A program made the position numbers and the translations under genes. From an uncultured Dehalococcoidia bacterium (lineage in GTDB: Bacteria; Chloroflexota; Dehalococcoidia; DSTF01; RBG-16-68-14): DNA of 64,000 bases. This document shows, piece by piece, positions 6,129-49,109 of the stretch. The DNA lies in NCBI GenBank assembly GCA_964406605.1, contig CAYOSF010000004.1, positions 36,322 through 100,321 of the forward strand, given 5' to 3'. The notes under the pieces are model-generated. The model was not told the DNA's origin, searched no databases, and worked only from the letters and a program-made list of their open reading frames with translations. The stretch's first letter is position 1, and every line of letters begins with the position of its first letter.

Positions 6129-6731
6129 ATGAACGCCATCATAAAGGTCACCGGTCTCATGGTCATGGTAGCGGCGGGGTACATCGGAATAGCTGGAGGC
6201 GTCGTCCAGGCGGCACCGGGGCCCGAAGAGGCGCAGATGGAGCGGATCACCGACCCGTGCATGGTGCTCGCGGACTGCATCCAGATCGATCCCTGTCTCG
6301 TCGTGGATTGTGACGATGAGCCGGCCGTTGAGCCTGCTGACGACCCGGCCGTTGAGCCTGCTGACGACCCGGTCGTTGAGCCTGGTGACGACCCGGCCGT
6401 TGAGCCCGGCGACGACCCGGCCGTTGAGCCTGGTGACGACCCGGCCGACGATCCTGGGGACGACCCGGCCGACGACCCTGGGGACGATCCCGGAGACGAC
6501 CCGGGCGACAATCCGGGCGACGATCCTGGAGACCACCCTGGTGACCAGCCGGGCGGTGACCCTGGGAACCAGCCCGGGACCAGCTCTCTGCCCGACGCCG
6601 GCACCGGCGACGGCGCCCCGGCCCAGAACAGCCAGGGAGTCATCGTTCTCGCCGCACTGGGCATCGCGGGCATCGCGATCCTGTTCGCCATGTTCGTGGC
6701 GTTCCGGAGCAAGGAATCGTCCGCACGCTGA
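6129..6731 (+). CDS. Secreted/anchored acidic tandem-repeat protein (Asp/Pro-rich)
   Basis: N-terminal hydrophobic signal/TM. Five 8-aa repeats (DDPAVEPA/G), then about twelve 4-aa repeats (DDPG/DDPA). C-terminal LPDAGTG...hydrophobic helix...RSKESSAR tail. Confidence 0.5.
   Translation: MNAIIKVTGLMVMVAAGYIGIAGGVVQAAPGPEEAQMERITDPCMVLADCIQIDPCLVVDCDDEPAVEPADDPAVEPADDPVVEPGDDPAVEPGDDPAVEPGDDPADDPGDDPADDPGDDPGDDPGDNPGDDPGDHPGDQPGGDPGNQPGTSSLPDAGTGDGAPAQNSQGVIVLAALGIAGIAILFAMFVAFRSKESSAR
6304..6590 (+). repeat. In-frame tandem repeats (24-bp x5, then 12-bp x~12) inside CDS 6129..6731
   Basis: Repeating gacgacccggccgttgagcctgstgac units followed by gacgayccbggv units, read directly from the sequence. 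Confidence 0.7.
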
Positions 6732-7299: not shown

Positions 7300-9045
7300 C
7301 TACGGCGGAAGGCTGCCGATGATGCCCGCGTCGTACTGGAGGATGAGCAGGGCATCGACGGCGTTGACCCGGCCGTCTCCGTTTGCATCGGCATGCTCCA
7401 GACAGGGCAGCGTGTCGACGATGCCCGCGTCCGACTGGAGCGCCAAGGCGGCGTCGGCACTGTTCACGTATCCGTCGCAGTTCGCGTCCCCGGCTGCCGC
7501 ACTCCTGTTCGCCATGAGCAACGTGTGGCTGTTCTGGTAGACACTCTGCACGCCGTTGGCGTCCTTGGCCCGCACATGGAAGGTGTAGTGGCCATCCGCC
7601 AGGCCGTTGAAGGTGGCGGAGGTATCTGCCGTCCAGTCGGACCAGTTGGGCCGCCTGTCCTCCGTGAAGCCTTGCAGATACGCCATCTCCCAGGTCTGCG
7701 GATCCCTGCGCCAACCTTCGAGGTAGTACGAGTAGAGGTAGCCGCCGGCACCTCCTGAGGCTATCCACTCGTAGTGCGTCCTGCCGGAGGTCACAGTGTC
7801 GCCGGCTGGGAACCTCGTGAGCATCACCATCGGGGCTGAGGGGTTCGCAAGCTGCCGGCCGACGTCCCGGCGGGTGGTGCCGAGCAATGCGTAGACCTCT
7901 CCGCCGGGGCAGATCGTTGGGTTGCAGTCCCGGTGGCCGCTGACGTTGACGAGATCGCGATTCCAGTCATCGTTCGAGAGGAGGAAGTCGCTGGAGCCAG
8001 TCGGGTCGATCTGGTGCGTGGAGCACTCCCAGGCCAGCACCTCCTTCAAGCGCGCGAGCATCTGGCCGCCTGGTTCGCCTCCTCCTTCGCACTCAGCAGG
8101 GGAACAGAACGTGCCCAGGAGGGACACGCCGGTGCTCCCGTAATTGTGGTTCAGGGCGTGGCCGGCGACCACGTCTTCGCTCAGGACCTCGCGGCCATCC
8201 TCCCACTCCCGCCCGTAGCGACCCTCGTAGGAGTTGCCGAACCTGTCCACCAGTGAGTTGTAGCCGATGTCGCCCCAGCCCAGCGTCCGGGCGTGGTAGG
8301 TGTAGACGGCCCGCACGTCAGCCTTGGCTTCCTCTTCGTTCGCGTAGTCGTTGCCGGTCACCGTGTGGTGGACGACGATCTTCTTGGTGGGCACGTAGGA
8401 GCGCGGCCAGATCTCCGTCCCGCCGTTGAATCTCAGGCTCTCGTCGGCGCCCCAGGCCTCCCGGGTGAAGGTTATGGGTTTGGCGCCCACCACTTGCCCG
8501 CTCACATTCGACGCCGACTCCACGACCGGACCGTCGGCACTGTTGATGAACGTCGCGGTGACAGATGAGATCGAAACGGACTCGGGAAGAGACGCCCGGT
8601 ACTGGAGACGGCGATGCCTGGGAGCTCTCAGAAGCGCCGCATAGGTTTCACCGCGCGGCGTCTCCAGCGGCCGGGCCTCGACGTAGAGTTGACGCCAGGG
8701 CGACCAAGACGCACCGTCCTCGGAGGTTCGGACCTCGAACCCGGCCTTTGCTAGGTCCGGACCGCCGCCCTTCCAGTGGAGGCCAACATGCGTGAAGGGA
8801 AACCGCGCGGCCATGACCGGCGACTCGAAGGCACCCGGACCAGCAAGCGCGCCCGCGCCCGCACGATCCAGCGTGGCACCGGCAAGCCGTCCTCGGGAGA
8901 ACGCCGCGCCGGAATGCACCGCGTCGTGGACCAGTGCGCGGACGGCGCCGGGACGCCCGCTCGCCGCCGGGCGCGGCCGGCGCAAGGCGCACATGCCTGC
9001 GACGGTCGAACCAGCGGCCGACGCGAGGAACCGCCGGCGGCTCAT
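7300..9045 (-). CDS. N-acetylmuramoyl-L-alanine amidase (Amidase_2/PGRP fold) with Tat signal and C-terminal type-I dockerin
   Basis: Tat motif MSRRRFLASAAG. KIVVHHTVT...GWGDIGYNSLVDRFG...SGHRDC..PT.CPG amidase_2 signature. Two dockerin repeats (DANCDGYVNSADAALALQ / DANGDGRVNAVDALLILQ) at the C-terminus. The upstream in-frame ATG at 9180 is less likely. Confidence 0.8.
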   Translation of the reverse strand: MSRRRFLASAAGSTVAGMCALRRPRPAASGRPGAVRALVHDAVHSGAAFSRGRLAGATLDRAGAGALAGPGAFESPVMAARFPFTHVGLHWKGGGPDLAKAGFEVRTSEDGASWSPWRQLYVEARPLETPRGETYAALLRAPRHRRLQYRASLPESVSISSVTATFINSADGPVVESASNVSGQVVGAKPITFTREAWGADESLRFNGGTEIWPRSYVPTKKIVVHHTVTGNDYANEEEAKADVRAVYTYHARTLGWGDIGYNSLVDRFGNSYEGRYGREWEDGREVLSEDVVAGHALNHNYGSTGVSLLGTFCSPAECEGGGEPGGQMLARLKEVLAWECSTHQIDPTGSSDFLLSNDDWNRDLVNVSGHRDCNPTICPGGEVYALLGTTRRDVGRQLANPSAPMVMLTRFPAGDTVTSGRTHYEWIASGGAGGYLYSYYLEGWRRDPQTWEMAYLQGFTEDRRPNWSDWTADTSATFNGLADGHYTFHVRAKDANGVQSVYQNSHTLLMANRSAAAGDANCDGYVNSADAALALQSDAGIVDTLPCLEHADANGDGRVNAVDALLILQYDAGIIGSLPP

Positions 9046-9180
9046 CTTCCGGCTCAGAAATGGGGACACGGCGCTTCCTTGCTCAACTGCCACCCAGCAG
9101 GCCAATCCGAGTGCTATCGCGGCCACTATACGGGCGGGGAATCGGGCCGTCAAACTGCGTCCCGACGCGGCGCCCGTCAT

Positions 9181-9800
9181 GCGCGTGAGGGCGAGGGGGG
9201 AGGAGGGTCATGGGTCGGGGGTCGAGGGTCGGGGGTCGGGGGAGGGTCCTTCGGCAAGCCCTTCGGCAGGCTCGGGGCGAGGGGCCAGATTCCTCGCTTC
9301 GCTCGGAATGACATTGCTCTTCATGTGAGTGGGGGAGCGCTGATGTCGAGGCGGGCGAGGGGAGAGGGTTCACCGCGGCGGCGAGCTTGGAGGGCGTGGC
9401 TCCCTCACCCCGACCTGACGGTCGACCCTCTCCCGCAGGCGGGCGAGGGGAGAGGAGGGTCATGGGTCGGGGGTCGAGGGCCGCGGGAGGGCGGGAGGTT
9501 CCTTCGACAGGCTCGGGGCGAGGGGCCAGGTTCCTCGCTTCGCTCGGAATGACACCGCTCTTCATGTGAGTGGGGGCGCGCTGCTGATGTCAAGGCGGGC
9601 GAGGGGAGAAGGCGGGGGTCATGGGTCGGGGTCGAGGGTCACGAGAGGGCGGGAGGTTCCTTCGACAGGCTCGGGGCGAGGGGCCAGATTCCTCGCTTCG
9701 CTCGGAATGACATTGCTCTTCATGTGAGTGGGGGAGCGCTGATGTCGAGGCGGGCGAGGGGAGAGGGTTCACCGCGGCGGCGAGCTTGGAGGGCTTCGAG
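9181..9800. repeat. Cluster of REP-like composite repeats (family 1): three copies of a ~110-130-bp unit, one CCCTCACCCCGACCTGACGGTCGACCCTCTCCCGCAGGCGGGCGAGGGG hairpin unit, and (GGGTCGR)n G-tracts
   Basis: Near-identical units at ~9267-9393, 9507-9612 and 9667-9795 (GCTCGGGGCGAGGGGCCAGATTCCTCGCTTCGCTCGGAATGACATTGCTCTTCATGTGAGTGGGGG...). G-tracts at 9208-9245, 9463-9480, 9617-9640. The same modules recur at 20285-20545, 26893-27125 and 32800-32905. Confidence 0.85.
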
Positions 9801-10259
9801 CTCGTGGAGGGTCTGGAGGCACTGGCGGTGCAGGTGTGTTTCGTAGCGAATGATGTTGTCGAGGACATGGGGCTCGGGAATGATGGAACTGTCCTGGGCA
9901 CGGTCGACGGGCTCGAGGTCGGGAAACCGGTCTTCGGAGCCGGTCTCCTCGATATAGGCGGCGGCGTGGGCAAGGTCCTCCGCCTCGTCTTCTACCTGCT
10001 GGGCCGTGACGGCAACCTCGAAGCGAGTGACGCGGTGGAGACGCCAGAGGAGGAGGGCGACGCGTTCGGCCAGGGCGTGCTCGAGATCGCTCTCGGGGCC
10101 GAGACTGGCGAGGATGCCGTCGCGATAGCGACGCCAATCGGACTCCCGCTCCATGCCCGGAATGACGGGTTTGGTGGAGGTAATGCCATGCGTGAGGGCG
10201 TTGCGGGCAATGACCGCCTTGCCGGTGTCAGTTGCGGGACCTGTCTTGCCCTTTGTCAT
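9720..10259 (-). CDS. Hypothetical protein; 3' end runs into repeat copy 3
   Basis: Begins MTKGKTGPATDTGKAVIARNALTHGI with a non-Arg-rich composition. The last ~25 codons are encoded by the family-1 repeat, so the native C-terminus is probably altered. Confidence 0.4.
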   Translation of the reverse strand: MTKGKTGPATDTGKAVIARNALTHGITSTKPVIPGMERESDWRRYRDGILASLGPESDLEHALAERVALLLWRLHRVTRFEVAVTAQQVEDEAEDLAHAAAYIEETGSEDRFPDLEPVDRAQDSSIIPEPHVLDNIIRYETHLHRQCLQTLHELEALQARRRGEPSPLARLDISAPPLT

Positions 10260-10337
10260 GGTTGAGCGCCGCCCCGTGGGCGGACACGGGGGACAGGGCA
10301 CCCACAGGGGGGTGCCTCTACAGTGTGGGCCAGGTAA

Positions 10338-10570
10338 TTGTTTCGCAAAATCGTGTTTTTTCTATGTACGCGCATTCGCATTTGGTATTGGGCGTGTGGG
10401 CGCACCCTACCCGCGGAAGGGCAGGCGGCCGTGCGCCCCTACATGGCTAGGCGGCCGTACGCCCCTACGGTTGGGTGTACGGAGCTACGATACGGCGCGG
10501 GCGGGAGAACGCCAAGGGGTGGGTGGCACGGCAAAAGGGTCGAGGGCCAGGGGTCGCGGGTCGCCGGAGC
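10338..10570. repeat. Family-3 element, copy 1 (~190 bp), plus adjacent (GGGTCGR)n tract
   Basis: Homologous to 20558-20725: shared GTTTYGCARAATCRTGTT...CGCGYATTCGCRTTTGGTAT, perfect palindrome GGCGCACGGCCGTGCGCC, and 3' block GTACGRAGCYTAGGATACGGCGCGGKCGGGAGARCGCSAAGGGGYGGGTGGCAC. Confidence 0.75.
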
Positions 10571-10727
10571 AGGGGGGCCTGCGATATTCCGCTATCGCCT
10601 CGAGCCCTCTTCCCTCTCGTCGACGACGGACCAACTCCCAGTGAACGTTGTCCACAGAGTTCCCGTGTGAACCAGGGTTATCGGGTCTCTGTGACAATAA
10701 CGCTACCTGGGTCCGGCGGGGGGGGCG

Positions 10728-17494: not shown

Positions 17495-17657
17495 CCGCGC
17501 CACGAGCGGCCGGCCGAGAGACTGCTGAACAAACTCCGCAAATCTGTCCCACCCGCCCGCCCGGTTGTGTTTGTTGAATCTGGGGGACACCCCCAGACCC
17601 CCGGCAGAGTCCTTCCCGGGAAGGACTCTGCACTCCCCCTTCTTCCGCAGGCTCAGC

Positions 17658-20284: not shown

Positions 20285-20545
20285 TCGTTGAGAGGATAGC
20301 GGCGAGAGGGTCGGGGGTCGAGGGCCGGGGGTCGCGAGAGCGCGGGCGAGGCAGTTGCCTGTTGATTGCATTTGGAAATGGGACGGATTCCAGATACGAG
20401 AAGCGCGCATGTGGTTTGATTGACCGTCGTCGGGATGGGACCGAGGGCCGGAGATGGAGGGTCGGGGGCCAAGGGTCGCCGGAGCGGACCCTCACCCCGA
20501 CCTGACGGTCGACCCTCTCCCGCACGCGGGCGAGGGCAGGGAACG
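20285..20545. repeat. Family-1 repeat modules: (GGGTCGR)n tracts plus CTCACCCCGACCTGACGGTCGACCCTCTCCCGCACGCGGGCGAGGG unit
   Basis: Direct sequence identity to modules in the 9181-9800 cluster. Confidence 0.8.
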
Positions 20546-20557
20546 GTAGGGAATTCG

Positions 20558-20725
20558 TTTTGCAGAATCATGTTCTTCCCCTGCACGCGTATTCGCGTTT
20601 GGTATCTGGAATCGGTTTCCGGGCGCACGGCCGTGCGCCCCTACGCGACCGGACCCGCACAAGACGGGTTGTACGAGCCTAGGATACGGCGCGGTCGGGA
20701 GAGCGCGAAGGGGCGGGTGGCACCG
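20558..20725. repeat. Family-3 element, copy 2
   Basis: See copy 1 (10338-10530). Contains palindrome GGCGCACGGCCGTGCGCC. Confidence 0.75.
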
Positions 20726-20852
20726 GGGGGAGGGCGGATACTGCGGCTGGCGAACGCAGAACGGACGCTACTGCGGCGGGACGGGCCTCGCCAGCAGAGC
20801 GAGTATGCGGGACAAGGGCGGCCTATAGCGAGGGGGCGGCGATCGGCTTAGA

Positions 20853-26106: not shown

Positions 26107-26761
26107 GTGAGGCGCGATTCCGAGCGGCGGCATCGCCAGTCCATTCGGCTGAAAGGGTACGACGACGCGCAGGCCGGCGCGTATTTCGTGACGGTCTGCA
26201 CGTACGGTCGGGAATGCCTGTTCGGGGAGGTGGCCGGCGGTGAGGTACGGTTGAACGAATGTGGCGAACTGGTTGAGGCGTGCTGGAATGACATTGCCGG
26301 CCATTTCGCCTGCGTCCAATTGGACGCGTTCGTGATCATGCCCAATCACGTTCACGCTATCCTTCACATCACGGAATGCCAGAGCGCCGCAACCGTAGGG
26401 GCACGGCATGCCGTGCCCCTACCGGGCAACGTGCCCCACCGAAACGTTGAACGGTTCGGCAAGCCGGTGGTGGGTTCGATTCCGACCATCGTGCGGTCCG
26501 TGAAATCCGCCACCACCAAACGTATCAACGAACGGCGCGACACGCCCGGGCGCGCGCGTGTGGCAACGCAACTACTACGAACACATCATCCGCGACGAGG
26601 AAACCACCATGGGCGCGGAAACCGCGCCCCTACCGGGGGTGGAACGACCGGCGCTGGACCGTATCCGACGGTACATCGTCGACAATCCGGCACGGTGGGC
26701 GTCCGATCCGGAGAACCCGCAGGCGGCGGTGCCGGAACGCGAGGAGGCATGGCGCACGTGA
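26107..26761 (+). pseudogene. REP-associated tyrosine transposase (RAYT / IS200-like TnpA_REP) with +1 frameshift
   Basis: Frame 1 reads HRQSIRLKGYDDAQAGAYFVTVCTYGRECLFGE…FVIMPNHVHAILH…SVKSATTKRINERRDTPG. Frame 2 continues VWQRNYYEHIIRDEE…IRRYIVDNPARW. The break lies in a GCGCGCG run near 26545-26555. Confidence 0.75.
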
Positions 26762-26892: not shown

Positions 26893-27125
26893 TAGGCCTA
26901 TGGCGAGGGGCCAGATTCCTCGCTTGCGCTCGGAATGACGGAGAGGGGGAAGGCGGGAGAGCGAGGGGCCGGGGGTCGAGTGTCGGGGGTCGGGAAAGAA
27001 CGGGCGGTGTGAGATGGTGGGGGCGTGGACGCACACGGATAGAGACCGAGGGTGGAAAGCCTCGGCTACGGTGGCGAGAGGGGTCGAGAACCGGGAGTCG
27101 AGGGTCGAGGGTCGAGGGTGGCAGT
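26893..27125. repeat. Family-1 repeat modules immediately downstream of the RAYT remnant
   Basis: GGCGAGGGGCCAGATTCCTCGCTTGCGCTCGGAATGAC plus several GGGTCGAGGGTCG tracts, e.g. gggtcgagggtcgagggtcgagggtgg at ~27096. Confidence 0.8.
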
Positions 27126-27137
27126 GTGCGGGACCAG

Positions 27138-28664
27138 TTAGCGCCGGCGCAGGCGCAGCGCCGCGTACGCAGCGGCCGCCGCGAGGCCCGTAGCCGCAAG
27201 GGCGGCGATGGGCCAGATCGGCAGGCCGTCGCCGGGGCCGCCGCCGATGCCGGTAGACGGCGGCCGAATGACCCCCGCGGTCGCGGTCGGGACGGGCGTG
27301 GTCGACGCGGGCTCGAACTCGTAGGCGCCGATGTCGCAGACCGCGCTACCGTCGCCGTCGCCGTCGAGGGGGCGGGCGACGCCGCGCTGGTCGGTGTCGG
27401 GCGGCGGGCAGTCATCGCTCGCGGCGTCGATGGCGGGGCTTCCGGCGAGGAGGGCGGAAGTTCGGGTGGACCCGCCGTTGTCGGCGAGGTCGCCGAGCAA
27501 GGGATCGGCGTCGGTGATGTCGCTGGGGGCGGTCGGGCCGCACGCGAGCGGATAGAAGATGTTGTGGCCGGCGGACGCGATCGTGGCGCCGATGCAGTTG
27601 TTGCCGATGCGGGTGCCGTTGAAGGCGACGATCGTGTTCTTCAGCGTCGTGGTGCCGCCGCCGGAGATGCCCCCTCCCCGACCGATGGCCGTGTTCGATG
27701 CGACGGTAGCGTGGTTGAGCATCGCCGATCCGGTATTGAAGAGGCCGGCGCCATCGCTGTTGGCGAGATTGCCTCCAATCGTGACGTTGGTGAGCGACAT
27801 GGCAGCGCCGTTGAAGATGCCGCCGCCGTCATCGCCGATGTTGCCGGCGAAGGTACTGTCACGGATGGTGACCGTGCCCGCATCGTTGTAGAGCCCGCCG
27901 CCGTTCGCGCTGAAGGCCGTGTTGCCGTTGCCGCTGATGGTACTGTCGGTGAGCATGAGGGAGCCGTTGTTTGCGATCCCGCCGCCGTTCGCGCTGTAAG
28001 CCGTGTTGCCGTTGCGGCTGACGGTACTGTCGGTGAGCGTGAGGGAGCCGTTGTTTGCGATCCCGCCGCCGTCGAAGGCGGAGTTCCCGCTGACGACGAC
28101 ATGGACAAGCGCCAGCACGCCGTTGTTCAAGACGCCGCCGCCGTCGTTGGGAGCGTTCCCTTTCCGGAGGGTCACGCCGGCGATCTGCACCGAGATACCG
28201 TCGGATGCAGGATCGACGTGGAAGGCGCGGTCGACGCCGCCCATGTCAATGACGGTGTCGGCCGCCCCTGCGCCCGTAATAGTGAGGTCACCCGTCGTGA
28301 CGTCCAGGTCGCCGTCGGCGGCGTCGTCGGGCGTGCCGTCCGGCGGGATACGCAGCATGTAGGTGCCCGGCCCGAGCAAGATGGCATCCGGACCGGGGGC
28401 CGTGTTGGCGTCGATGATCGCCTCCCGCAGGGAGCAGTCACCCGGCGCGCAGCCGTCGGGGGCGGGATCGTCGAACCTCGTAACCTCGAAGCCGGTCGCT
28501 GCGGCCGGCTGCCGGCCGCCCGGCATGACCAGCACAAGAGCGGCAACGGCAAGGCCGAACGCGACCAATGCGAGAAGTCGGGGAACGGCAGGGGTCAAAC
28601 GGGACGTGGGCGTGCCTCCTTGTACGTCTCGACCTGGGCGGGAGCTTACTCCGCGGTCGAGCAA
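27138..28664 (-). CDS. Secreted right-handed beta-helix protein with CSLREA domain and C-terminal hydrophobic anchor plus Arg tail
   Basis: CSLREAIIDAN motif, many NxGxL / GGG beta-helix repeats, N-terminal signal/TM, C-terminal …WPIAALAATGLAAAAAYAALRLRRR. Confidence 0.6.
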   Translation of the reverse strand: MLDRGVSSRPGRDVQGGTPTSRLTPAVPRLLALVAFGLAVAALVLVMPGGRQPAAATGFEVTRFDDPAPDGCAPGDCSLREAIIDANTAPGPDAILLGPGTYMLRIPPDGTPDDAADGDLDVTTGDLTITGAGAADTVIDMGGVDRAFHVDPASDGISVQIAGVTLRKGNAPNDGGGVLNNGVLALVHVVVSGNSAFDGGGIANNGSLTLTDSTVSRNGNTAYSANGGGIANNGSLMLTDSTISGNGNTAFSANGGGLYNDAGTVTIRDSTFAGNIGDDGGGIFNGAAMSLTNVTIGGNLANSDGAGLFNTGSAMLNHATVASNTAIGRGGGISGGGTTTLKNTIVAFNGTRIGNNCIGATIASAGHNIFYPLACGPTAPSDITDADPLLGDLADNGGSTRTSALLAGSPAIDAASDDCPPPDTDQRGVARPLDGDGDGSAVCDIGAYEFEPASTTPVPTATAGVIRPPSTGIGGGPGDGLPIWPIAALAATGLAAAAAYAALRLRRR

Positions 28665-32799: not shown

Positions 32800-32905
32800 G
32801 CCGTGCGAGGTCCCTCCCTCACCCCCTTCCCCTCTCCCTCGTGCGCGAGGGCGAGGGGTGGCCCTTCCGCAGAAGGGCCGGTGTGAGGGAATACCGGAAG
32901 AAGGC
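32800..32905. repeat. Family-1 C-type unit (CCCTCACCCCCTTCCCCTCTCCCTCGTGCGCGAGGGCGAGGGG)
   Basis: Sequence similarity to units at 9396-9452 and 20490-20540. Confidence 0.6.
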
Positions 32906-39845: not shown

Positions 39846-39957
39846 GGGGCCGGACTGGCTCCCCGAGCAGTCCTTCCCCGGAAGGAGAACCTGCAATCCT
39901 TCCCCGGAAGGACGGTTAATCCTTCCCTGGAAGGACCCGCTCTGGCGGGTGAGCGAT
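39846..39957. repeat. Family-2 repeat (tRNA-Asn 3'-half-like unit with two CCTTCCCCGGAAGGA palindromes)
   Basis: TGGCTCCCCGAGCAGTCCTTCCCCGGAAGGAGAACCTGCAATCCTTCCCCGGAAGGA…; compare tRNA-Asn 3' half TGGCTCCCCGAGCAGGACTCGAACCTGCAACC at 46860-46891. Confidence 0.75.
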
Positions 39958-41835: not shown

Positions 41836-42372
41836 ATGGGCCAAATGCGGCGGCCCGACCTGTCGGTACACATCAGTCTTGGCGTGCTTTGGGCTTCGTC
41901 ACGGCCCTCCTCAGCCGCTCTTTGGCACGAGCTGCTTTGCGTCTGCTACCACGAGTTCGGCCACGTAGCCACGTTCTGGGCACAAGGCTATGTCTCAGTG
42001 GGCGAGTATGTGGTTTGCGGTGATGGCTGCCGCCGGGCTGAGCGAGCAGAAGGGTTGGTCCTAATGCCGAAATCCTCGCTCCGCTCGCTCGTGATTGCCA
42101 ACAATTGCGGATGCACACGCAGCACCCGTCGAATCCGTCAACTGCTCAGATCAACATTGACAACTAATGCTTGGTGTGTTGCCACCGAGACCTCCTCTGC
42201 TGACCTCAGAGCATGCTCATCTGGGGGGCTGGTGGTGGTTCAGGTGCCGAATCCGCGGGTGTTGAGTCTGGTGTTAGCTGTTGGCTCCCCGAGCATCCTT
42301 CCCCGGAAGGAGAACCTGCAATCCATCCCCGGAAGGACCCGCTCTACTGGTTGGTGGGTCTTCTGCGTCTGA
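41836..42372 (+). CDS. Possible degraded HExxH-motif ORF (YHEFGH), lower GC, 3' end replaced by family-2 repeat
   Basis: Only support: HEFGH motif, a local GC drop, and no better ORF in 41500-42280. Composition is odd (Cys/Ser-rich). Confidence 0.2.
   Translation: MGQMRRPDLSVHISLGVLWASSRPSSAALWHELLCVCYHEFGHVATFWAQGYVSVGEYVVCGDGCRRAERAEGLVLMPKSSLRSLVIANNCGCTRSTRRIRQLLRSTLTTNAWCVATETSSADLRACSSGGLVVVQVPNPRVLSLVLAVGSPSILPRKENLQSIPGRTRSTGWWVFCV
42284..42350. repeat. Family-2 repeat unit
   Basis: TGGCTCCCCGAGCATCCTTCCCCGGAAGGAGAACCTGCAATCCATCCCCGGAAGGACCCGCTCTACTGG. Confidence 0.8.
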
Positions 42373-42601
42373 GGCGTTCGCGCAATTCCTGGTTCGCTCT
42401 GCCTCGCTTGAGTTCTCGCTCCCGGCGCATGGCGGCGGTCCGGGTAGGGAACTCCTCAGAGTACACCAACTGCCAGGGGCCTCGCGTGGCCGTCCACTTG
42501 GCCTGTCCCTCAGCATGCTCGGTCAAGCGCCGGGCCAGGTCTCTGGTGCTTCCGACGTACAATCGTCCTTCCGGGTTCTGCAACACGTAGACAGAGAACA
42601 A
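42344..42601 (-). CDS. GIY-YIG nuclease-family small protein
   Basis: FSVYVLQNPEGRLYVGSTRDLARRLTEHAEG…WQLVYSEEFPTRTAAMRRERELK. Start set at the TTG at 42601 because the longer ORF N-terminus is encoded by the repeat array. Confidence 0.6.
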   Translation of the reverse strand: MFSVYVLQNPEGRLYVGSTRDLARRLTEHAEGQAKWTATRGPWQLVYSEEFPTRTAAMRRERELKRGRANQELRERLRRRRPTNQ

Positions 42602-42622
42602 GAACGCCCCTTGACTCCGGAA

Positions 42623-42895
42623 AGCGGACTGGCTCCGCGAGCGTCCTTCCCTGGAAGGAGAACCTGCAACCCAGCGCTCGATCTTTCGCTGGAAGGACCT
42701 GCTCTGTGGTTGAGTAACTGGCTCCCCGAGCATCCTTCCCCGGAAGGACCCGCTCTATGGTTTGGTGGACTGGCTCCCCGAGCATCCTTCCCCGGAAGGA
42801 GAACCGGCAACCCAGCGGTGAATCCTTCCCCGGAAGGACCCGCTCTATGGTTTGGCGAAATGGCTCCCCGCGCCGGGGTAAAATCCGAACTTTTC
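42623..42895. repeat. Tandem array (~3.5 units) of family-2 repeats
   Basis: Units beginning CTGGCTCCCCGAGCATCCTTCCCCGGAAGGA…, in long (~90 bp) and short (~50 bp) forms. Confidence 0.85.
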
Positions 42896-47153: not shown

Positions 47154-47582
47154 CTAGGAAAGGCCGACCCCGACCTGCTGGACGAGGGTCATCATGTCGA
47201 AGTAGCGATGGCTCTCCTTGATCCTTCCGCCCTCGAAGGTGAGTAGCTGGACGGACCGCGTTACCTGATGCTTGCCGGAGGCGGGGATCGTACCGTCCGG
47301 ACCAACGAGCGGGCGGGTGTGGGTCCCCTCCCAGATGATCTCCACCGTGGCGGTGCTGTCGCCGGCGACGGCCTTGGTGATGGTTCCCTTGGCGTCCGGG
47401 AAGGCTTCCTTCCAGCCGCGAGCTGCCTCGACGATCCGATCGGCGCCCCGGACGTGCAGGTGTGACCCGATCTCGTCGTACGCACTATCGGGCGCCAGCG
47501 TGGCCTTGAAGCGCTTCATGTCCCCGTCGTTGAACGCCCCGATGTTCTCTCGAGCCACGTGAATCATCTCTTGCTCGGTCAT
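47154..47582 (-). CDS. Ester-cyclase / SnoaL-like polyketide-cyclase family protein (copy A)
   Basis: MTEQEMIHVARENIGAFNDGDMKRFKATLAPDSAYDE… ~80% identical to copy B. Confidence 0.7.
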   Translation of the reverse strand: MTEQEMIHVARENIGAFNDGDMKRFKATLAPDSAYDEIGSHLHVRGADRIVEAARGWKEAFPDAKGTITKAVAGDSTATVEIIWEGTHTRPLVGPDGTIPASGKHQVTRSVQLLTFEGGRIKESHRYFDMMTLVQQVGVGLS

Positions 47583-47686
47583 TTCCTAGTCCTTCCCCTG
47601 GGTCTCTCGAAGGGCGACCCCGCGTCCCTTCGGGCCTGAGATAGGAACGGGGGATACCATCTTCACAAACAAGGATATCACTACTG

Positions 47687-47701
47687 ATTGACGAAGTCAA
47701 T
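47687..47701. promoter_or_regulatory. Perfect inverted repeat ATTGAC-GAA-GTCAAT (candidate operator) in divergent intergenic region
   Basis: Read directly. Identical site at 48519-48533 in the duplicate. Overlaps a TTGACG -35-like hexamer. Confidence 0.45.
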
Positions 47702-47878
47702 CGCCGCGATAGATAACAGCCGGGCTCATCCGGTCATGCGGGACAGGAGTGCATGTAGGAATCGTATTGGAGTCTTGAAGCGGCCAGAGTCAGAGCGTAA
47801 CGTGCTGATACAGATACGTGTTTGCGTTCTTCCCGATAGCCCGCAGGGGGCCGAGCTTCTGTTAGGCCCGTAGACGGC

Positions 47879-47913
47879 GCAGGCAGCCATCGGACATGGC
47901 TGCCTGCTTTCTT
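47879..47913 (+). terminator. Intrinsic-terminator-like hairpin (12-bp perfect stem GCAGGCAGCCAT/ATGGCTGCCTGC, 5-nt loop) followed by TTTCTT
   Basis: Read directly. Lies in the duplicated leader region ahead of a truncated HIT-gene 5' fragment. Confidence 0.55.
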
Positions 47914-47990
47914 GGTGCCGCCTGCGCGCCCAGCTAGAGATGGGCGACGGTCGCGCTCGTGCAGTGGTGTGCGTTCTGCCGCATCGTCCC

Positions 47991-48419
47991 TCAGGAGGAG
48001 GCGGCCCCGATCTGCTGAAGGAGCGTCATCATGTCGAAGTAGTGGTGGCTCTCCTTGATCCTTTCGCCCTCGAACGTGAATACTTCTACCGCCCGAGTGG
48101 TCTGGCGCTTGCCGGAGGGAGGAATCGTGCCTCCCGGACCCATGAGCGGTCCGGTATGCGTCCCCTCCCAGATGAGCTCTACCGTGGCGGTGCTGTCGCC
48201 GGCAACCGCCTTGGTGATGGTTCCCCTGGCGTCCGGGAAGGCTTCCTTCCAACCCAGAACGGTCTCTGCGATCTGCTCTGCGCCTTGGATGCGCCGGTGG
48301 GTCCCGACCTCGTCGTAGACGCTGTCGGGCGCCAGCGTGGCCTTGAAGCGCTTCATGTCCCCATCGTTGAACGCCTCGACGTTCTCACGGGCCAAGTGGA
48401 TCATCTCTTGCTCGGTCAT
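47991..48419 (-). CDS. Ester-cyclase / SnoaL-like polyketide-cyclase family protein (copy B)
   Basis: MTEQEMIHLARENVEAFNDGDMKRFKATLAPDSVYDE…. Start at Met45 of ORF 47991..48551. Confidence 0.7.
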   Translation of the reverse strand: MTEQEMIHLARENVEAFNDGDMKRFKATLAPDSVYDEVGTHRRIQGAEQIAETVLGWKEAFPDARGTITKAVAGDSTATVELIWEGTHTGPLMGPGGTIPPSGKRQTTRAVEVFTFEGERIKESHHYFDMMTLLQQIGAASS

Positions 48420-48518
48420 TTCCTGCTCCTTCCTTTCGATCTCCCCCCGAGTGTCTTGGCGGCCCTCCGAACGGGATGGAGGGTATACCATGCTTACAAG
48501 CAAGCGTAGCATGGTTTG

Positions 48519-48533
48519 ATTGACGAAGTCAAT
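48519..48533. promoter_or_regulatory. Second copy of ATTGAC-GAA-GTCAAT palindrome
   Basis: Identical 15-mer, same relative position between the cyclase (copy B) and HIT genes. Confidence 0.45.
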
Positions 48534-48709
48534 CGCTTTCATAGGAAACACCTAGGATTCCATGGTTATGTAGGGCAGAAGTGTCCTTCGGAGATGTATG
48601 GAGGTCTTGACTCGGCCGGAGTCCGAGCGTAAAGTGCTGATACAGATAGACGTTTGCCTATTTCCGATAGCCCGCAGGGGGCCGAGTGTCTCCAGGGCCC
48701 GTAGCCGGC

Positions 48710-48738
48710 GCAGGCAGCCACATCCGATGGCTGCCTGC
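48710..48738 (+). promoter_or_regulatory. Leader hairpin (GCAGGCAGCCA / TGGCTGCCTGC stem) 50 nt upstream of the HIT start; attenuator-like, weak U-tract
   Basis: Homologous to the 47879-47907 hairpin. Followed by GCGTTTG rather than a clean U-run. Confidence 0.4.
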
Positions 48739-48788
48739 GCGTTTGACGCCGCCTGCGCGCCCACCTAGAATGGGCGACGGTCACTGTC

Positions 48789-49109
48789 GTGCAGTGGTGT
48801 ACGTTCTGCCGCATCGTCGCTCACCAGGAGCCCGCCGAGATCCTCTTCGAGGATGAAGAGATCATGGTGTTCCGCAACCGGCTGAACTGGGTGCCGGTGA
48901 TGCTGCTGGTGGTGCCGAAAGAGCACATCTCGCAGGAGGACTTGTGGCGGCGGATGGGTCGGGTGGCGGAGGTGGCGGTGGAGATGGGCGCGACCCACTG
49001 TCCCAACGGCTTCCGGCTGATCTCGAACTTCGGCCACGACGGAATGCAGAGCATCCAGCACGGGCACGTGCACGTCCTTGGCGGCGGGTTCCTGGGCGAA
49101 TACGCCTGA
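48789..49109 (+). CDS. HIT-family (histidine triad) hydrolase
   Basis: MQWCTFCRIV… and HGHVHVLGG histidine-triad motif. Confidence 0.75.
   Translation: MQWCTFCRIVAHQEPAEILFEDEEIMVFRNRLNWVPVMLLVVPKEHISQEDLWRRMGRVAEVAVEMGATHCPNGFRLISNFGHDGMQSIQHGHVHVLGGGFLGEYA

What the first reader, a model, noticed from the sequence alone, without database searches (positions are those of the whole stretch)
9181..9800. Dense cluster of REP-like composite repeats with (GGGTCGR)n G-quadruplex-prone tracts, one copy supplying the C-terminus of an adjacent gene
Seen: three ~110-130-bp units (two essentially identical, at 9267-9393 and 9667-9795) contain nested hairpins (GCGAGG…CCTCGC and ATTCC…GGAAT). Between them lie the hairpin unit CCCTCACCCCGACCTGACGGTCGACCCTCTCCCGCAGGCGGGCGAGGGG and runs such as gggtcgggggtcgagggtcgggggtcggggg (G3-N3-G3 pattern, all on the + strand). 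The same modules recur at 10535-10570, 20285-20545, 26893-27125 (next to the RAYT gene) and 32800-32905. ORF 9720..10259 only reaches a stop inside repeat copy 3. Inference: a REPIN/REP-type mobile repeat family mobilised by the RAYT at 26107-26761. The G-tracts could form G4 structures affecting replication or transcription of the neighbouring minus-strand genes.
Basis: partly seen in the sequence, partly recalled or inferred. Interest (0 to 1): 0.5.

Follow-up and report, generated by a model that had tools for sequence, protein, structure and literature searches.

The report
Tandemly amplified hairpin-repeat cluster
A 620-base non-coding stretch holds three tandem copies of a gene's tail plus small hairpin and G-rich repeats, which is ordinary bacterial repeat DNA, except that its hairpin belongs to a cross-phylum family found beside small GIY-YIG nuclease genes rather than beside the transposase first suspected.

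Summary
The repeats are real and sit at the stated coordinates. 9181-9800 is the spacer between two minus-strand genes. It holds about 3.5 tandem units. Each unit contains the last 16-24 codons and stop of the upstream 179-aa gene, a TGTC-tagged hairpin (H), a weaker hairpin (S), and a (GGGTCGR)n tract that can form G4 structures.

- **C-terminus.** The gene's C-terminus is conserved in 20 homologues from other organisms. The gene therefore donated its tail to the repeats, not the reverse.
- **RAYT link.** 80 loci with homologues of this (frameshifted) RAYT carry GTAG...CTAC palindromes in and beside the gene. None has an H hairpin next to it, and (GGGTCGR)n appears once in all 80.

H fits the published CGTC/TGTC-tagged REP class, which is reported to lack a transposase. 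Its exact 28-mer occurs in more than 119 genome stretches from many phyla.

An unexpected result came from following this up. In 18 of 20 independent cases, from about eight phyla, stand-alone GIY-YIG nuclease genes are bracketed on both sides by hairpins of this class. One such gene lies in this window at 42343-42597. I found no paper describing this association.

The locus itself is a new member of a known kind, a mosaic REP cluster. The GIY-YIG link is the interesting lead, and it is inferred from co-location only.

The parts
9720..10259 (-). 179-aa conserved hypothetical gene. Its genuine 3' end (9720-9794) is the proximal copy of the repeated unit.
   Evidence: ORF and translation. 719 homologues, mostly from Chloroflexota/Dehalococcoidia metagenomes. 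C-terminus conserved in 20 homologues. All-helical model, pLDDT 75, no PDB fold match with E <= 0.001, no Pfam/NCBIfam/PHROG hit.
9684..9712 (-). H hairpin copy 3: TGTC tag, then ATTCC-GA-GC-GAA-GC-GA-GGAAT, then CTGG tail. It begins 7 nt after the stop codon.
   Evidence: It fits the tagged-hairpin signature.
9659..9676 (-). S module copy 3 (CCCCGAGCCTGTCGAAGG)
   Evidence: three exact copies in the array. A similar motif directly follows the stop codon of a homologue in L001.
9597..9643 (+). G-rich heptamer tract 3, a G4 motif
9562..9612 (-). Orphan copy of the gene tail (PSPLARLDISSAPPLT*)
   Evidence: alignment A2.
9526..9554 (-). H hairpin copy 2 (TGTC tag; GGAAC variant)
9501..9518 (-). 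S module copy 2
9441..9495 (+). G-rich heptamer tract 2, a G4 motif
9402..9456 (+). P module: CCCTCACCCCGACC...CCCTCTCCCG-CAGG-CGGGCGAGGG hairpin. Its C-rich arm pairs with the adjacent G tract.
   Evidence: A second copy lies at 20489-20542. The fold of 9396-9500 on the minus strand has z -2.6.
9321..9395 (-). Orphan copy of the gene tail (ALQARRRGEPSPLARLDISAPPLT*). It lies within the 136-nt copy 9260-9395, which is 99% identical to the copy holding the real tail (9659-9794).
9285..9313 (-). H hairpin copy 1 (TGTC tag)
9260..9277 (-). S module copy 1
9189..9246 (+). G-rich heptamer tract 1, (GGGTCGR)4.4. It is the strongest G4 motif and is preceded by a decayed copy of the 19-nt junction motif.
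9748..9766 (+). 19-nt direct repeat AGGCGGGCGAGGGGAGAGG, which encodes PSPLAR on the minus strand. Other copies are at 9349-9367 and 9437-9455 (exact) and 9593-9611 (one mismatch), at the unit junctions.
   Evidence: Exact 19-nt matches at 9349, 9437 and 9748. The copy at 9593-9611 is read directly from the sequence and falls within the 9437-9609 / 9593-9764 alignment.
9125..9153 (-). Sigma-70-like promoter (TTGACG-17-TATAGT, 10 of 12 matches) for the downstream amidase gene. It marks the distal edge of the array.
   Evidence: The amidase/dockerin ORF 7300-9180 has a Tat-like MSRRRFL start near 9046.
26911..26940 (-). Fourth H copy (CGTC tag, GCAA loop), about 150 nt beyond the RAYT stop. G tracts follow at 26945-26994 and 27093-27118.
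26107..26761 (+). RAYT-like Y1 transposase gene. It is frameshifted near 26546-26556 and contains GTAG palindromes (26395-26422; also 26626, 26849).
   Evidence: After frameshift correction: Pfam Y1_Tnp 25.7 bits (cut-off 23); NCBIfam REP_Tyr_transpos E 4.5e-16, 59 bits (cut-off 80).
20285..20730 (.). Second mosaic locus: G tracts (20308-20336, 20459-20479), P module (20489-20542), and an orphan copy of the 179-aa gene's conserved 5' region (20545-20730) with no gene.
42343..42597 (-). Stand-alone GIY-YIG nuclease gene (85 aa). It is flanked by the (C/G)GTC-tagged hairpin family GTCCTTCC..GGAAGGA at 42282-42357 and 42625-42870. More copies lie at 39851-39943 and 17604-17631.
   Evidence: tblastn E 6.5e-9. 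Pfam GIY-YIG E 1.6e-17. Repeats.

Best explanation
**What it is.** 9181-9800 is a mosaic REP cluster in the spacer between the 3' end of a conserved 179-aa gene and the promoter of an amidase gene. One composite unit was reiterated about 3.5 times. The unit holds the last 16-24 codons and stop of the gene, a TGTC-tagged stem-loop (H), a weaker stem-loop (S), and a (GGGTCGR)n microsatellite.

**How it arose (inferred).** The most likely route is slipped-strand or unequal recombination between the 19-nt direct repeat AGGCGGGCGAGGGGAGAGG that marks every junction. A very recent conversion or duplication then made copies 1 and 3 99% identical. The real gene end donated sequence to the repeats.

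**What H is (shown).** H matches the CGTC/TGTC-tagged REP class rather than the GTAG class. The GTAG palindromes elsewhere in the window go with the RAYT family; H does not.

**Likely enzyme partner (inferred from co-location only).** The partner of H-class hairpins is a small stand-alone GIY-YIG nuclease, because such genes are bracketed by these hairpins in many phyla.

**Likely role here (inferred).** At this locus the array is probably selfish or neutral DNA. It is most likely transcribed in the gene's 3' UTR, where the GAA/GNRA-loop hairpin may protect the mRNA 3' end. G4 potential is a by-product of the G-rich heptamer.
For: **Anatomy.**

**Gene tail is ancestral.** The tail is conserved in 20 homologues. 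Copies 1 and 2 translate as orphan tails.

**A parallel case.** In another Chloroflexota-type assembly (L206), 4 tandem 131-nt hairpin units follow the homologous gene. The first overlaps its 3' end.

**H class membership.**
- The base before GTC is T in 113 and C in 13 of 132 copies.
- The stem starts A-T, T-A.
- Loops are GAA (114 copies) or GNAA (18 copies).
- 80 of 132 copies form tags-outward dimers.

**RAYT excluded.**
- GTAG palindromes occur at 1.29 per kb in the gene, 0.35-0.46 per kb in the flanks, and 0.03 per kb further away.
- H-type hairpins number 0 in the gene and flanks.

**GIY-YIG link.**
- 20 independent genes were examined: 18 have tagged hairpins on both sides, 1 on one side, 1 none.
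- Density in the flanks is 5.3 per kb, against 0.059 per kb in the RAYT loci.
- In 50-kb controls from A. lipoferum and S. meliloti, every family-specific hairpin (3 and 4) lies within 110 and 330 nt of the GIY-YIG gene.

**Promoter.** A promoter-like site bounds the array.
Against: - No close relative of this genome was available, so the duplication history and any presence/absence polymorphism at this locus are inferred, not observed.
Genome-wide copy numbers are therefore unknown.
- The H copies here are singletons, not dimers. No GIY-YIG gene with H-type flanks lies in the window. The window's GIY-YIG gene has a different hairpin family.
- Predicted folding energies of the units are no better than shuffled sequence.
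- H deviates from the published CGTC class in loop length (3-4 nt against 4-5) and tail (CTGG against CCA).
- GIY-YIG enzymes hydrolyse DNA and do not form covalent intermediates, so how they would move a repeat is unclear.
- Nine of the 20 GIY-YIG cases were judged by eye.
Confidence: 0.65

Rival explanations
1. The composite units are REP/REPIN elements mobilised by the RAYT at 26107-26761.
For: - One H copy and two G tracts lie 150-360 nt downstream of the RAYT stop.
- After frameshift correction the protein is a Y1/RAYT-like HUH enzyme.
- REPs commonly flank RAYT genes (PMC3733652).
Against: - H has no GTAG tag.
- Among 80 homologous RAYT loci, none has an H-type hairpin in the gene or its 300-nt flanks.
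- 55 of the 80 carry GTAG...CTAC palindromes inside the gene, and these are enriched more than 10-fold in the flanks.
- The strict tagged-hairpin signature gives 1 hit in 37.6 kb of RAYT flanks.
- The RAYT here is frameshifted.
- No RAYT homologue was found in 927 kb around 132 H copies.
Confidence: 0.07
2. The orphan gene tails are scars left by the 179-aa gene cassette itself. On this view the conserved 5' region, the gene and the downstream modules move or recombine as one unit. Rearrangement with a second copy, now the gene-less remnant at 20285-20730, would have left successive 3' fragments.
For: - The gene sits in unrelated neighbourhoods in every homologue examined.
- A two-block conserved 5' region travels with it.
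- An orphan 5' region followed by a P module lies at 20489-20730, flanked by G tracts as at the intact locus.
- The P module shares GCGGGCGAGGG with the gene's PLAR codons.
Against: - The protein shows no nuclease, recombinase or transposase fold or domain.
- No terminal repeats or target duplications delimit a cassette.
- A simple tandem period (158 nt) with direct repeats at the junctions is what slippage produces.
- Only 2 of 7 homologue loci carry arrays.
Confidence: 0.12
3. The array is a selected regulatory element. It could be a 3'-UTR stabiliser or insulator, or a G-quadruplex block on the template strand that limits read-through into the amidase gene or affects replication.
For: - H starts 7 nt after the stop codon, in the sense orientation.
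- The GAA/GNRA loop and tandem G.A pairs exist on that strand only.
- REPs lie mostly downstream of genes and are thought to act as RNA elements (PMC3733652).
- Three strong G4 motifs sit on the strand that is template for the minus-strand genes.
- All 24 heptamer matches are on the + strand.
Against: - There is no T-run terminator.
- Folding is no better than shuffled sequence.
- The near-identity of copies 1 and 3 points to recent amplification rather than a conserved design.
- Homologous genes elsewhere lack the array.
- Heptamer tracts in other lineages are not G-rich.
- The strand bias matches the window's positive GC skew.
Confidence: 0.08
4. Assembly artefact. The near-identical copies were created when repeat-containing reads from a metagenome were mis-joined.
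For: - The source is a metagenome-type contig. The protein is known from a single NCBI contig of 307,586 bp.
- Copies 1 and 3 differ at 1 of 136 positions.
Against: - The three units have graded divergence (99%, and about 85-91% with gaps) and differ by indels and by the inserted P module. That pattern is not what a collapse or expansion artefact gives.
- A comparable array exists in an independent assembly (L206).
- Similar arrays vary in copy number between four Microcoleus assemblies.
Confidence: 0.04

Closest known systems
CGTC-tagged REPs (Di Nocera, De Gregorio & Rocco 2013, BMC Genomics 14:522; PMC3733652). From my own knowledge, the class includes Neisseria dRS3-type and rhizobial palindromes.
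   Same: - H has a terminal YGTC tag outside the stem (TGTC three times and CGTC once here; 126 of 132 copies elsewhere).
- Its stem is 9 positions long and starts A-T, T-A, with a short loop and a short unpaired tail.
- Most copies form inverted dimers, and there is no link to a transposase gene.
   Different: - Two of the nine stem positions are tandem G.A mismatches.
- The loop is 3-4 nt (GAA or GNAA) rather than 4-5.
- The tail is CTGG rather than CCA.
- The host phyla seen here (Chloroflexota, Acidobacteriota, Planctomycetota, Gemmatimonadota, Armatimonadota) were not on the published list.
- The copies in this window are singletons embedded in a tandem mosaic.
GTAG REPs / REPINs with RAYT ('REPtrons')
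   Same: - Both are short, dispersed, extragenic palindromes.
- Both show clusters reiterated together with flanking DNA.
- In both, a small nuclease gene is bracketed by its own hairpins. That is the geometry seen here for GIY-YIG genes.
- The window holds a genuine example: a RAYT with GTAG palindromes.
   Different: - H has no GTAG tag.
- H is absent from 80 RAYT-homologue loci.
- The co-located enzyme is a GIY-YIG hydrolytic nuclease, not an HUH/Y1 enzyme.
BIMEs of E. coli and NIMEs of Neisseria (mosaic intergenic elements; my own knowledge, and the mention in PMC3733652)
   Same: Both are intergenic mosaics in which REP-type hairpins alternate with other short conserved modules, in variable tandem combinations.
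   Different: The module set here (H, S, P, heptamer tract) is different, and the unit includes a fragment of the neighbouring coding sequence.
Cyanobacterial STRR heptanucleotide repeats (my own knowledge: Mazel et al. 1990; used for fingerprinting, PMC5088731)
   Same: - Both are short tandem arrays of a 7-nt unit, dispersed in non-coding DNA and strand-biased.
- Period 7 is also the commonest non-triplet period in the 119 H-bearing loci (107 arrays, against 44 for period 6 and 42 for period 8).
   Different: - The unit sequence GGGTCGR and the host phylum are different.
- The copy number is only 2-4.5 per tract.
- A specific link to H hairpins was tested and is weak (7 of 132 copies against 2.2% of random positions).

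Membership tests
REP/REPIN-RAYT system | Short (20-40 nt) imperfect palindrome, extragenic and multi-copy | tested here: met
   H is 25-29 nt. There are 4 copies in the window and more than 119 stretches in other genomes.
REP/REPIN-RAYT system | Conserved GTAG tetranucleotide at one end of the palindrome | tested here: not met
   H starts with TGTC or CGTC. GTAG palindromes do exist in the window, but they are different elements (GCCCCTAC: 7 matches against 2.0 expected).
REP/REPIN-RAYT system | The same repeats flank the RAYT gene | tested here: not met
   Here one H copy lies 150 nt from the RAYT on one side only. Across 80 homologous RAYT loci there are 0 H-type hairpins in the gene or its flanks.
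REP/REPIN-RAYT system | REPIN = two inverted REPs forming a long hairpin | tested here: not met
   The window copies have no inverted partner. In other genomes 80 of 132 copies do.
CGTC-tagged REP superfamily (PMC3733652) | Terminal CGTC (variants TGTC, CCTC) not involved in pairing | tested here: met
   TGTC at 9313, 9554 and 9712, and CGTC at 26940. Elsewhere T occurs 113 times and C 13 times in 132 copies.
CGTC-tagged REP superfamily (PMC3733652) | 8-9 bp stem with complementary A-T residues in the first and second positions | tested here: met
   The stem is ATTCC-GA-GC / GC-GA-GGAAT. It has nine positions, the first two are A-T and T-A, and positions 6-7 are tandem G.A.
CGTC-tagged REP superfamily (PMC3733652) | Loop of 4-5 nt | tested here: inconclusive
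   GAA (3 nt) in 114 copies and GNAA (4 nt) in 18 copies. The copy at 26911 has GCAA.
CGTC-tagged REP superfamily (PMC3733652) | Short unpaired tail, mostly CCA | tested here: inconclusive
   A conserved tail is present, but it reads CTGG.
CGTC-tagged REP superfamily (PMC3733652) | Not associated with transposase genes | tested here: met
   No RAYT homologue in 927 kb around H copies. The recurrent neighbour is a GIY-YIG nuclease.
STRR-type heptanucleotide tandem repeats | Head-to-tail 7-nt units, dispersed in non-coding DNA | tested here: met
   TRF period 7 at 9212-9242, 20308-20334 and 27097-27119. There are 8 tracts, all intergenic.
STRR-type heptanucleotide tandem repeats | Cyanobacterial host and the STRR unit sequences | tested here: not met
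   The host is of Chloroflexota type and the unit is GGGTCGR.
Diversity-generating retroelement (template/variable repeat at a gene's 3' end) | Nearby reverse transcriptase, and differences between repeats confined to adenines | tested here: not met
   No RT lies among the neighbouring ORFs scanned. Copies 1 and 3 differ at 1 of 136 positions. Copy 2 differs by indels and mixed substitutions.
G-quadruplex-forming sequence | Four or more runs of at least 3 G separated by loops of 1-7 nt | tested here: met
   Present at 9189-9246, 9441-9495 and 9597-9638, with G4Hunter up to 2.52.
G-quadruplex-forming sequence | Actual folding, and an effect on polymerases | not testable with these tools
   This needs CD or polymerase-stop assays, or in-vivo probing.

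The most novel reading that the evidence does not exclude
CGTC/TGTC-tagged REP hairpins, including the H hairpin of this array, may be the non-autonomous partners of a small stand-alone GIY-YIG nuclease. That would be a second REP system, independent of RAYT, found from Chloroflexota and Acidobacteriota to rhizobia and Neisseria. The autonomous form would be [YGTC-hairpin] - GIY-YIG gene - [hairpin-GACR]. The common gene-less hairpin dimers would be its internally deleted derivatives. This would fill the gap left by the published statement that CGTC REPs 'lack a dedicated transposase'.
Probability: 0.4. Interest if true: 0.8.

Novelty: new member of a known kind. Interest (0 to 1): 0.55.

Why it matters
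The locus by itself is ordinary: a mosaic REP cluster that copied the tail of its neighbouring gene. It does warn annotators that a repeat overlapping a gene end need not have created that end.

The wider value has two parts.
- **Conservation.** A 28-nt hairpin is conserved letter for letter across many phyla. REP families are usually specific to a species or genus, so this is unusual.
- **A testable enzyme candidate.** Hairpins of this tagged class sit systematically on both sides of a tiny GIY-YIG nuclease gene. If that nuclease makes or maintains them, a 2013 open question becomes directly testable: what propagates CGTC-type REPs, which include abundant repeats of Neisseria, rhizobia and cyanobacteria? 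One purified protein and one oligonucleotide would be enough for a first test.

Tried and rejected
- **Rfam.** Only a tRNA passed the gathering threshold in the window. Relaxed thresholds over 9000-10700 gave only chance-level hits.
- **DGR reading of the repeated gene tail.** Rejected: no RT, and no adenine-specific differences.
- **Heptamer tracts as fixed partners of H hairpins.** 7 of 132 H copies have a period-7 array within 120 nt, against 2.2% of random positions. That is explained by both being intergenic, so I dropped the idea.
- **The 179-aa protein as the mobilising enzyme.** It is all-helical, with no PDB fold match at E <= 0.001 and no family hit.
- **Hairpin stability.** Not significant with nearest-neighbour DNA parameters. 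From my own knowledge, those parameters do not model tandem G.A pairs or GAA mini-hairpins well.
- **Context look-ups.** The window's own protein and its closest large-contig homologue were not on record.
- **tblastn with the RAYT against all H loci.** No hits.
- **Viral-contig scan for GIY-YIG relatives.** One locus, without flanking hairpins.
- **Literature.**
  - No hit for the H 22-mer.
  - No paper links GIY-YIG with REP, REPIN, MITE or RAYT.
  - The library is limited to open-access papers.
- **32800-32905.** It resembles the P module only loosely, and I did not count it as a copy.
Full report
**1. Setting**

The window has 65.5% G+C. Homologues of its genes are named Chloroflexota or Dehalococcoidia where a name exists.

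The flagged tract lies between two minus-strand genes:
- ORF 9720-10259 encodes 179 aa and has no family assignment.
- An amidase/dockerin gene lies downstream. Its long ORF reaches 9180, but its likely Tat-type start (MSRRRFL) is near 9046. A sigma-70-like promoter sits at 9153-9125.

The repeats therefore fill the stretch from a gene's stop codon to the next gene's promoter.

**2.

- A 136-nt unit occurs at 9260-9395, 9501-9636 and 9659-9794. The outer copies are 99% identical.
- TRF finds a 158-nt period.
- Aligning the three units shows each is a mosaic. Read on the minus strand, the sense of the genes, it runs: gene tail and stop, then TGTCATTCCGAGCGAAGCGAGGAATCTGG (H), then CCCCTCGCC, then CCCCGAGCCTGTCGAAGG (S), then the complement of a (GGGTCGR)n tract.
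- A 19-nt motif, AGGCGGGCGAGGGGAGAGG, marks every junction. It is exact at 9349, 9437 and 9748 and has one mismatch at 9593.
- Between units 1 and 2 sits the P module (9402-9456), which recurs at 20489-20542.
- The heptamer pattern is well above chance: 24 matches against 7.4 expected. All 24 are on the + strand, which fits the positive GC skew across the window.
- Three canonical G4 motifs lie in the tract.
Predicted folding is not better than shuffled sequence, except for P plus its neighbouring G tract.

**3. The gene tail is ancestral**

Twenty homologues from other organisms, 46-65% identical, all end with ...HELEALQARRRGExxxLARLDISxPP. Copy 3 therefore contains the gene's own 3' end.

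Copies 1 and 2 translate as ALQARRRGEPSPLARLDISAPPLT* and PSPLARLDISSAPPLT*, with nothing coding upstream of them. They are orphan duplicates of the tail. The repeat did not supply the C-terminus. The unit that was amplified simply started inside the gene.

A parallel case exists in another assembly (L206). Four tandem 131-nt hairpin units follow the homologous gene. There the first unit really does add a C-terminal extension beyond the family's conserved end.

**4. The RAYT is not the partner**

- The ORF at 26107-26761 is a Y1/RAYT-like gene only after a frameshift near 26546-26556 is corrected.
- I fetched 80 metagenome loci encoding 39-55% identical homologues.
- GTAG[GA]GG...CC[CT]CTAC palindromes occur 58 times inside the gene, in 55 of the 80 loci. 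Their density is 0.35-0.46 per kb in the 300-nt flanks and 0.03 per kb further away.
- H-type hairpins are absent from the genes and flanks, and (GGGTCGR)n occurs once in all 80 loci.
- The same GTAG palindromes are present in the window: GCCCCTAC gives 7 matches against 2 expected, at 10435, 10461, 20637, 26395/26415, 26626 and 26849.
- They are the RAYT-type REPs of this genome, in line with published GTAG REPs in Chloroflexi.
- The single H copy 150 nt beyond the RAYT stop is best read as co-occurrence in a repeat-rich spacer.

**5. What H is**

- The 28-nt core, with one optional base, matches exactly in at least 119 stretches of species-representative genomes. The scan stopped at its limit.
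- These come from Acidobacteriota, Bacteroidota (Hymenobacter), Planctomycetota, Gemmatimonadota, Chloroflexota, Armatimonadota, Ignavibacteria-like groups, Binatia and Luteimonas.
- Across 132 copies, the base before GTC is T in 113 and C in 13.
- The loop is GAA in 114 copies and GNAA in 18.
- 80 copies have an inverted partner 38-83 nt downstream (tags outward). Only 6 have one upstream.
- On the strand that carries the tag, the stem reads ATTCC-GA-GC/GC-GA-GGAAT. That is five Watson-Crick pairs, two tandem G.A positions and two G-C pairs closing a GAA or GNRA loop. The complementary strand would have T.C mismatches instead. This is read directly from the sequence.
- These features match the published CGTC-tagged REP class: CGTC or TGTC tag, 8-9 bp stem beginning A-T/T-A, short loop, short tail, mostly dimers, and no transposase.
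- H differs from that class in loop length and tail sequence.

**6. The unexpected neighbour**

I clustered all ORFs in the 927 kb around H copies. This gave common housekeeping families plus one small family present in four loci. That family proved to be stand-alone GIY-YIG nucleases of 85-101 aa (Pfam E 1e-11 to 1e-17). In each of the four loci the gene is bracketed by H-class hairpins.

*Where the 20 genes came from:*
- The window holds one at 42343-42597(-). It is flanked by arrays of a (C/G)GTC-tagged hairpin, GTCCTTCC..GGAAGGA, at 42282-42357 and 42625-42870. Further copies lie at 39851-39943 and 17604-17631.
- One more turned up in a RAYT locus (L165), flanked by GTCATTGCGAG...GCAATGAC elements.
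- Three were chosen only by taxon from a protein search: Microcoleus, a deltaproteobacterium, and an unnamed lineage.
- Ten came from plasmid or chromid records: Planktothrix, S. meliloti, Spirosoma, Rhizobium, N. aromaticivorans, A. lipoferum, N. gonorrhoeae, Sphingobium, Aeromonas and Photobacterium.
- One came from a viral-contig scan.

*What the flanks show:*
- Of 20 independent genes, 18 have tagged hairpins on both sides within about 120 nt.
- One has them on one side only (Photobacterium), and one has none (the viral contig).
- A strict signature gives 5.3 hits per kb in the flanks of the first nine genes. The RAYT loci give 0.059 per kb.
- In two 50-kb controls, every family-specific hairpin lies next to the GIY-YIG gene. 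A. lipoferum has 3, and the gene there interrupts sufB-sufC. S. meliloti has 4, and the gene lies between lpxB and gltA.

*Geometry and host overlap:*
- The geometry is either one hairpin on each side with tags outward, or a dimer on each side. This is the same tags-outward geometry as the gene-less dimers.
- Several host species are those listed as CGTC-REP carriers in the 2013 paper.
- Array copy number differs among four Microcoleus assemblies.

*Limits:* I found no paper that links GIY-YIG with REPs, but the library holds open-access papers only. Co-location is shown. Any catalytic role is inferred.

**7. How the locus most likely works**

*Shown:*
- the mosaic anatomy;
- the ancestry of the gene tail;
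- the class of H;
- the mismatch with the RAYT family;
- the GIY-YIG co-location at family level.

*Inferred:*
- The array grew by slippage or unequal exchange between the 19-nt junction repeats. A recent conversion made copies 1 and 3 nearly identical.
- H-class hairpins are spread or maintained by a GIY-YIG nuclease encoded elsewhere in the genome.
- The array is transcribed with the 179-aa gene and may protect the mRNA 3' end.

G4 formation is possible but is probably incidental.

**8. Other points on the surroundings**

- The 179-aa gene family carries a conserved two-block 5' region (GTGCCACCTCCCCCTTCGCGCTCTCCCC ... ACATAAC ... CACGATTTTGCAAAACGAA) in every homologue examined.
- A gene-less copy of that region, followed by a P module and G tracts, lies at 20285-20730.
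- This keeps open a rival in which the gene cassette itself has moved or recombined.

**9. Verdict**

The locus is a new member of a known kind. The lead worth following is the GIY-YIG association of CGTC/TGTC-tagged hairpins.

Noticed in passing
window 42282-42870 (gene 42343-42597, minus strand); also 39851-39943 and 17604-17631: A stand-alone 85-aa GIY-YIG nuclease gene is flanked on both sides by arrays of a (C/G)GTC-tagged hairpin, GTCCTTCC..GGAAGGA (TRF period 52 at 42691-42800). More copies lie 2.4 kb away, and a perfect 28-nt palindrome of the same family sits at the 3' end of the GH116 gene.
   Followed up: yes
L054, L069, L105/L215, L114, L165, L207-L210, L211-L214, L216-L219, L221-L230: Across about eight phyla, small GIY-YIG nuclease genes are bracketed by CGTC/TGTC-tagged REP hairpins: 18 of 20 on both sides. 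In 50-kb controls from A. lipoferum and S. meliloti, the only such hairpins are those next to the gene. No paper describing this was found.
   Followed up: yes
L226/L231 (A. lipoferum AZO_p3 255398-255920); L207-L210 (Microcoleus); L221 (Planktothrix): The hairpin-GIY-YIG-hairpin cassette sits inside otherwise contiguous gene sets: between sufB and sufC, between the type I R-M genes hsdR and hsdM, and between MmeI and drmA. The Microcoleus downstream array differs in length between four assemblies, with the next gene starting at 1784, 1910, 1938 or 2029.
   Followed up: partly
window 26107-26761: The RAYT-like gene is frameshifted near 26546-26556. It carries GTAG palindromes inside its reading frame (a 28-nt perfect palindrome at 26395-26422, encoding VGARHAVPL). 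55 of 80 homologues elsewhere also have a GTAG...CTAC palindrome inside the gene.
   Followed up: partly
window 10260-10530 and 20545-20730; L001, L002, L203-L206: The 179-aa gene family has a conserved two-block upstream region in all homologues examined. In the window it is interrupted by GTAG palindromes. A second, gene-less copy lies at 20545-20730. It could be a promoter/leader or a structured RNA; this was not tested.
   Followed up: partly
L206 2564-3192: In another assembly (GCA_030157145.1), the homologous gene is followed by four tandem 131-nt units made of CCCTCTCCCG..CGGGAGAGGG and TGTCCTTCCGTAAGGAAGGAC hairpins. The first unit overlaps the gene and adds a C-terminal extension.
   Followed up: partly
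L004-L122 (119 loci, 927 kb): Period-7 tandem repeats are the commonest non-triplet period in these diverse genomes (107 arrays, against 44 for period 6 and 42 for period 8). This echoes the heptamer STRR repeats of cyanobacteria.
   Followed up: partly
window 1-64000: All 24 heptamer matches and 12 of 16 G4 motifs are on the + strand. GC skew is positive across nearly the whole window, which suggests the + strand is the leading strand.
   Followed up: no
window 47161-48830: Two adjacent segments of about 840 bp are 79% identical (47161-48000 and 47999-48830). This is probably a tandem gene duplication.
   Followed up: no
window 6314-6578 and 27891-28072: There are coding-type tandem repeats: 12/24/48-nt periods at 6314-6578, and an 84-nt period (2.1 copies, 94% matches) at 27894-28072, both inside long ORFs.
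   Followed up: no
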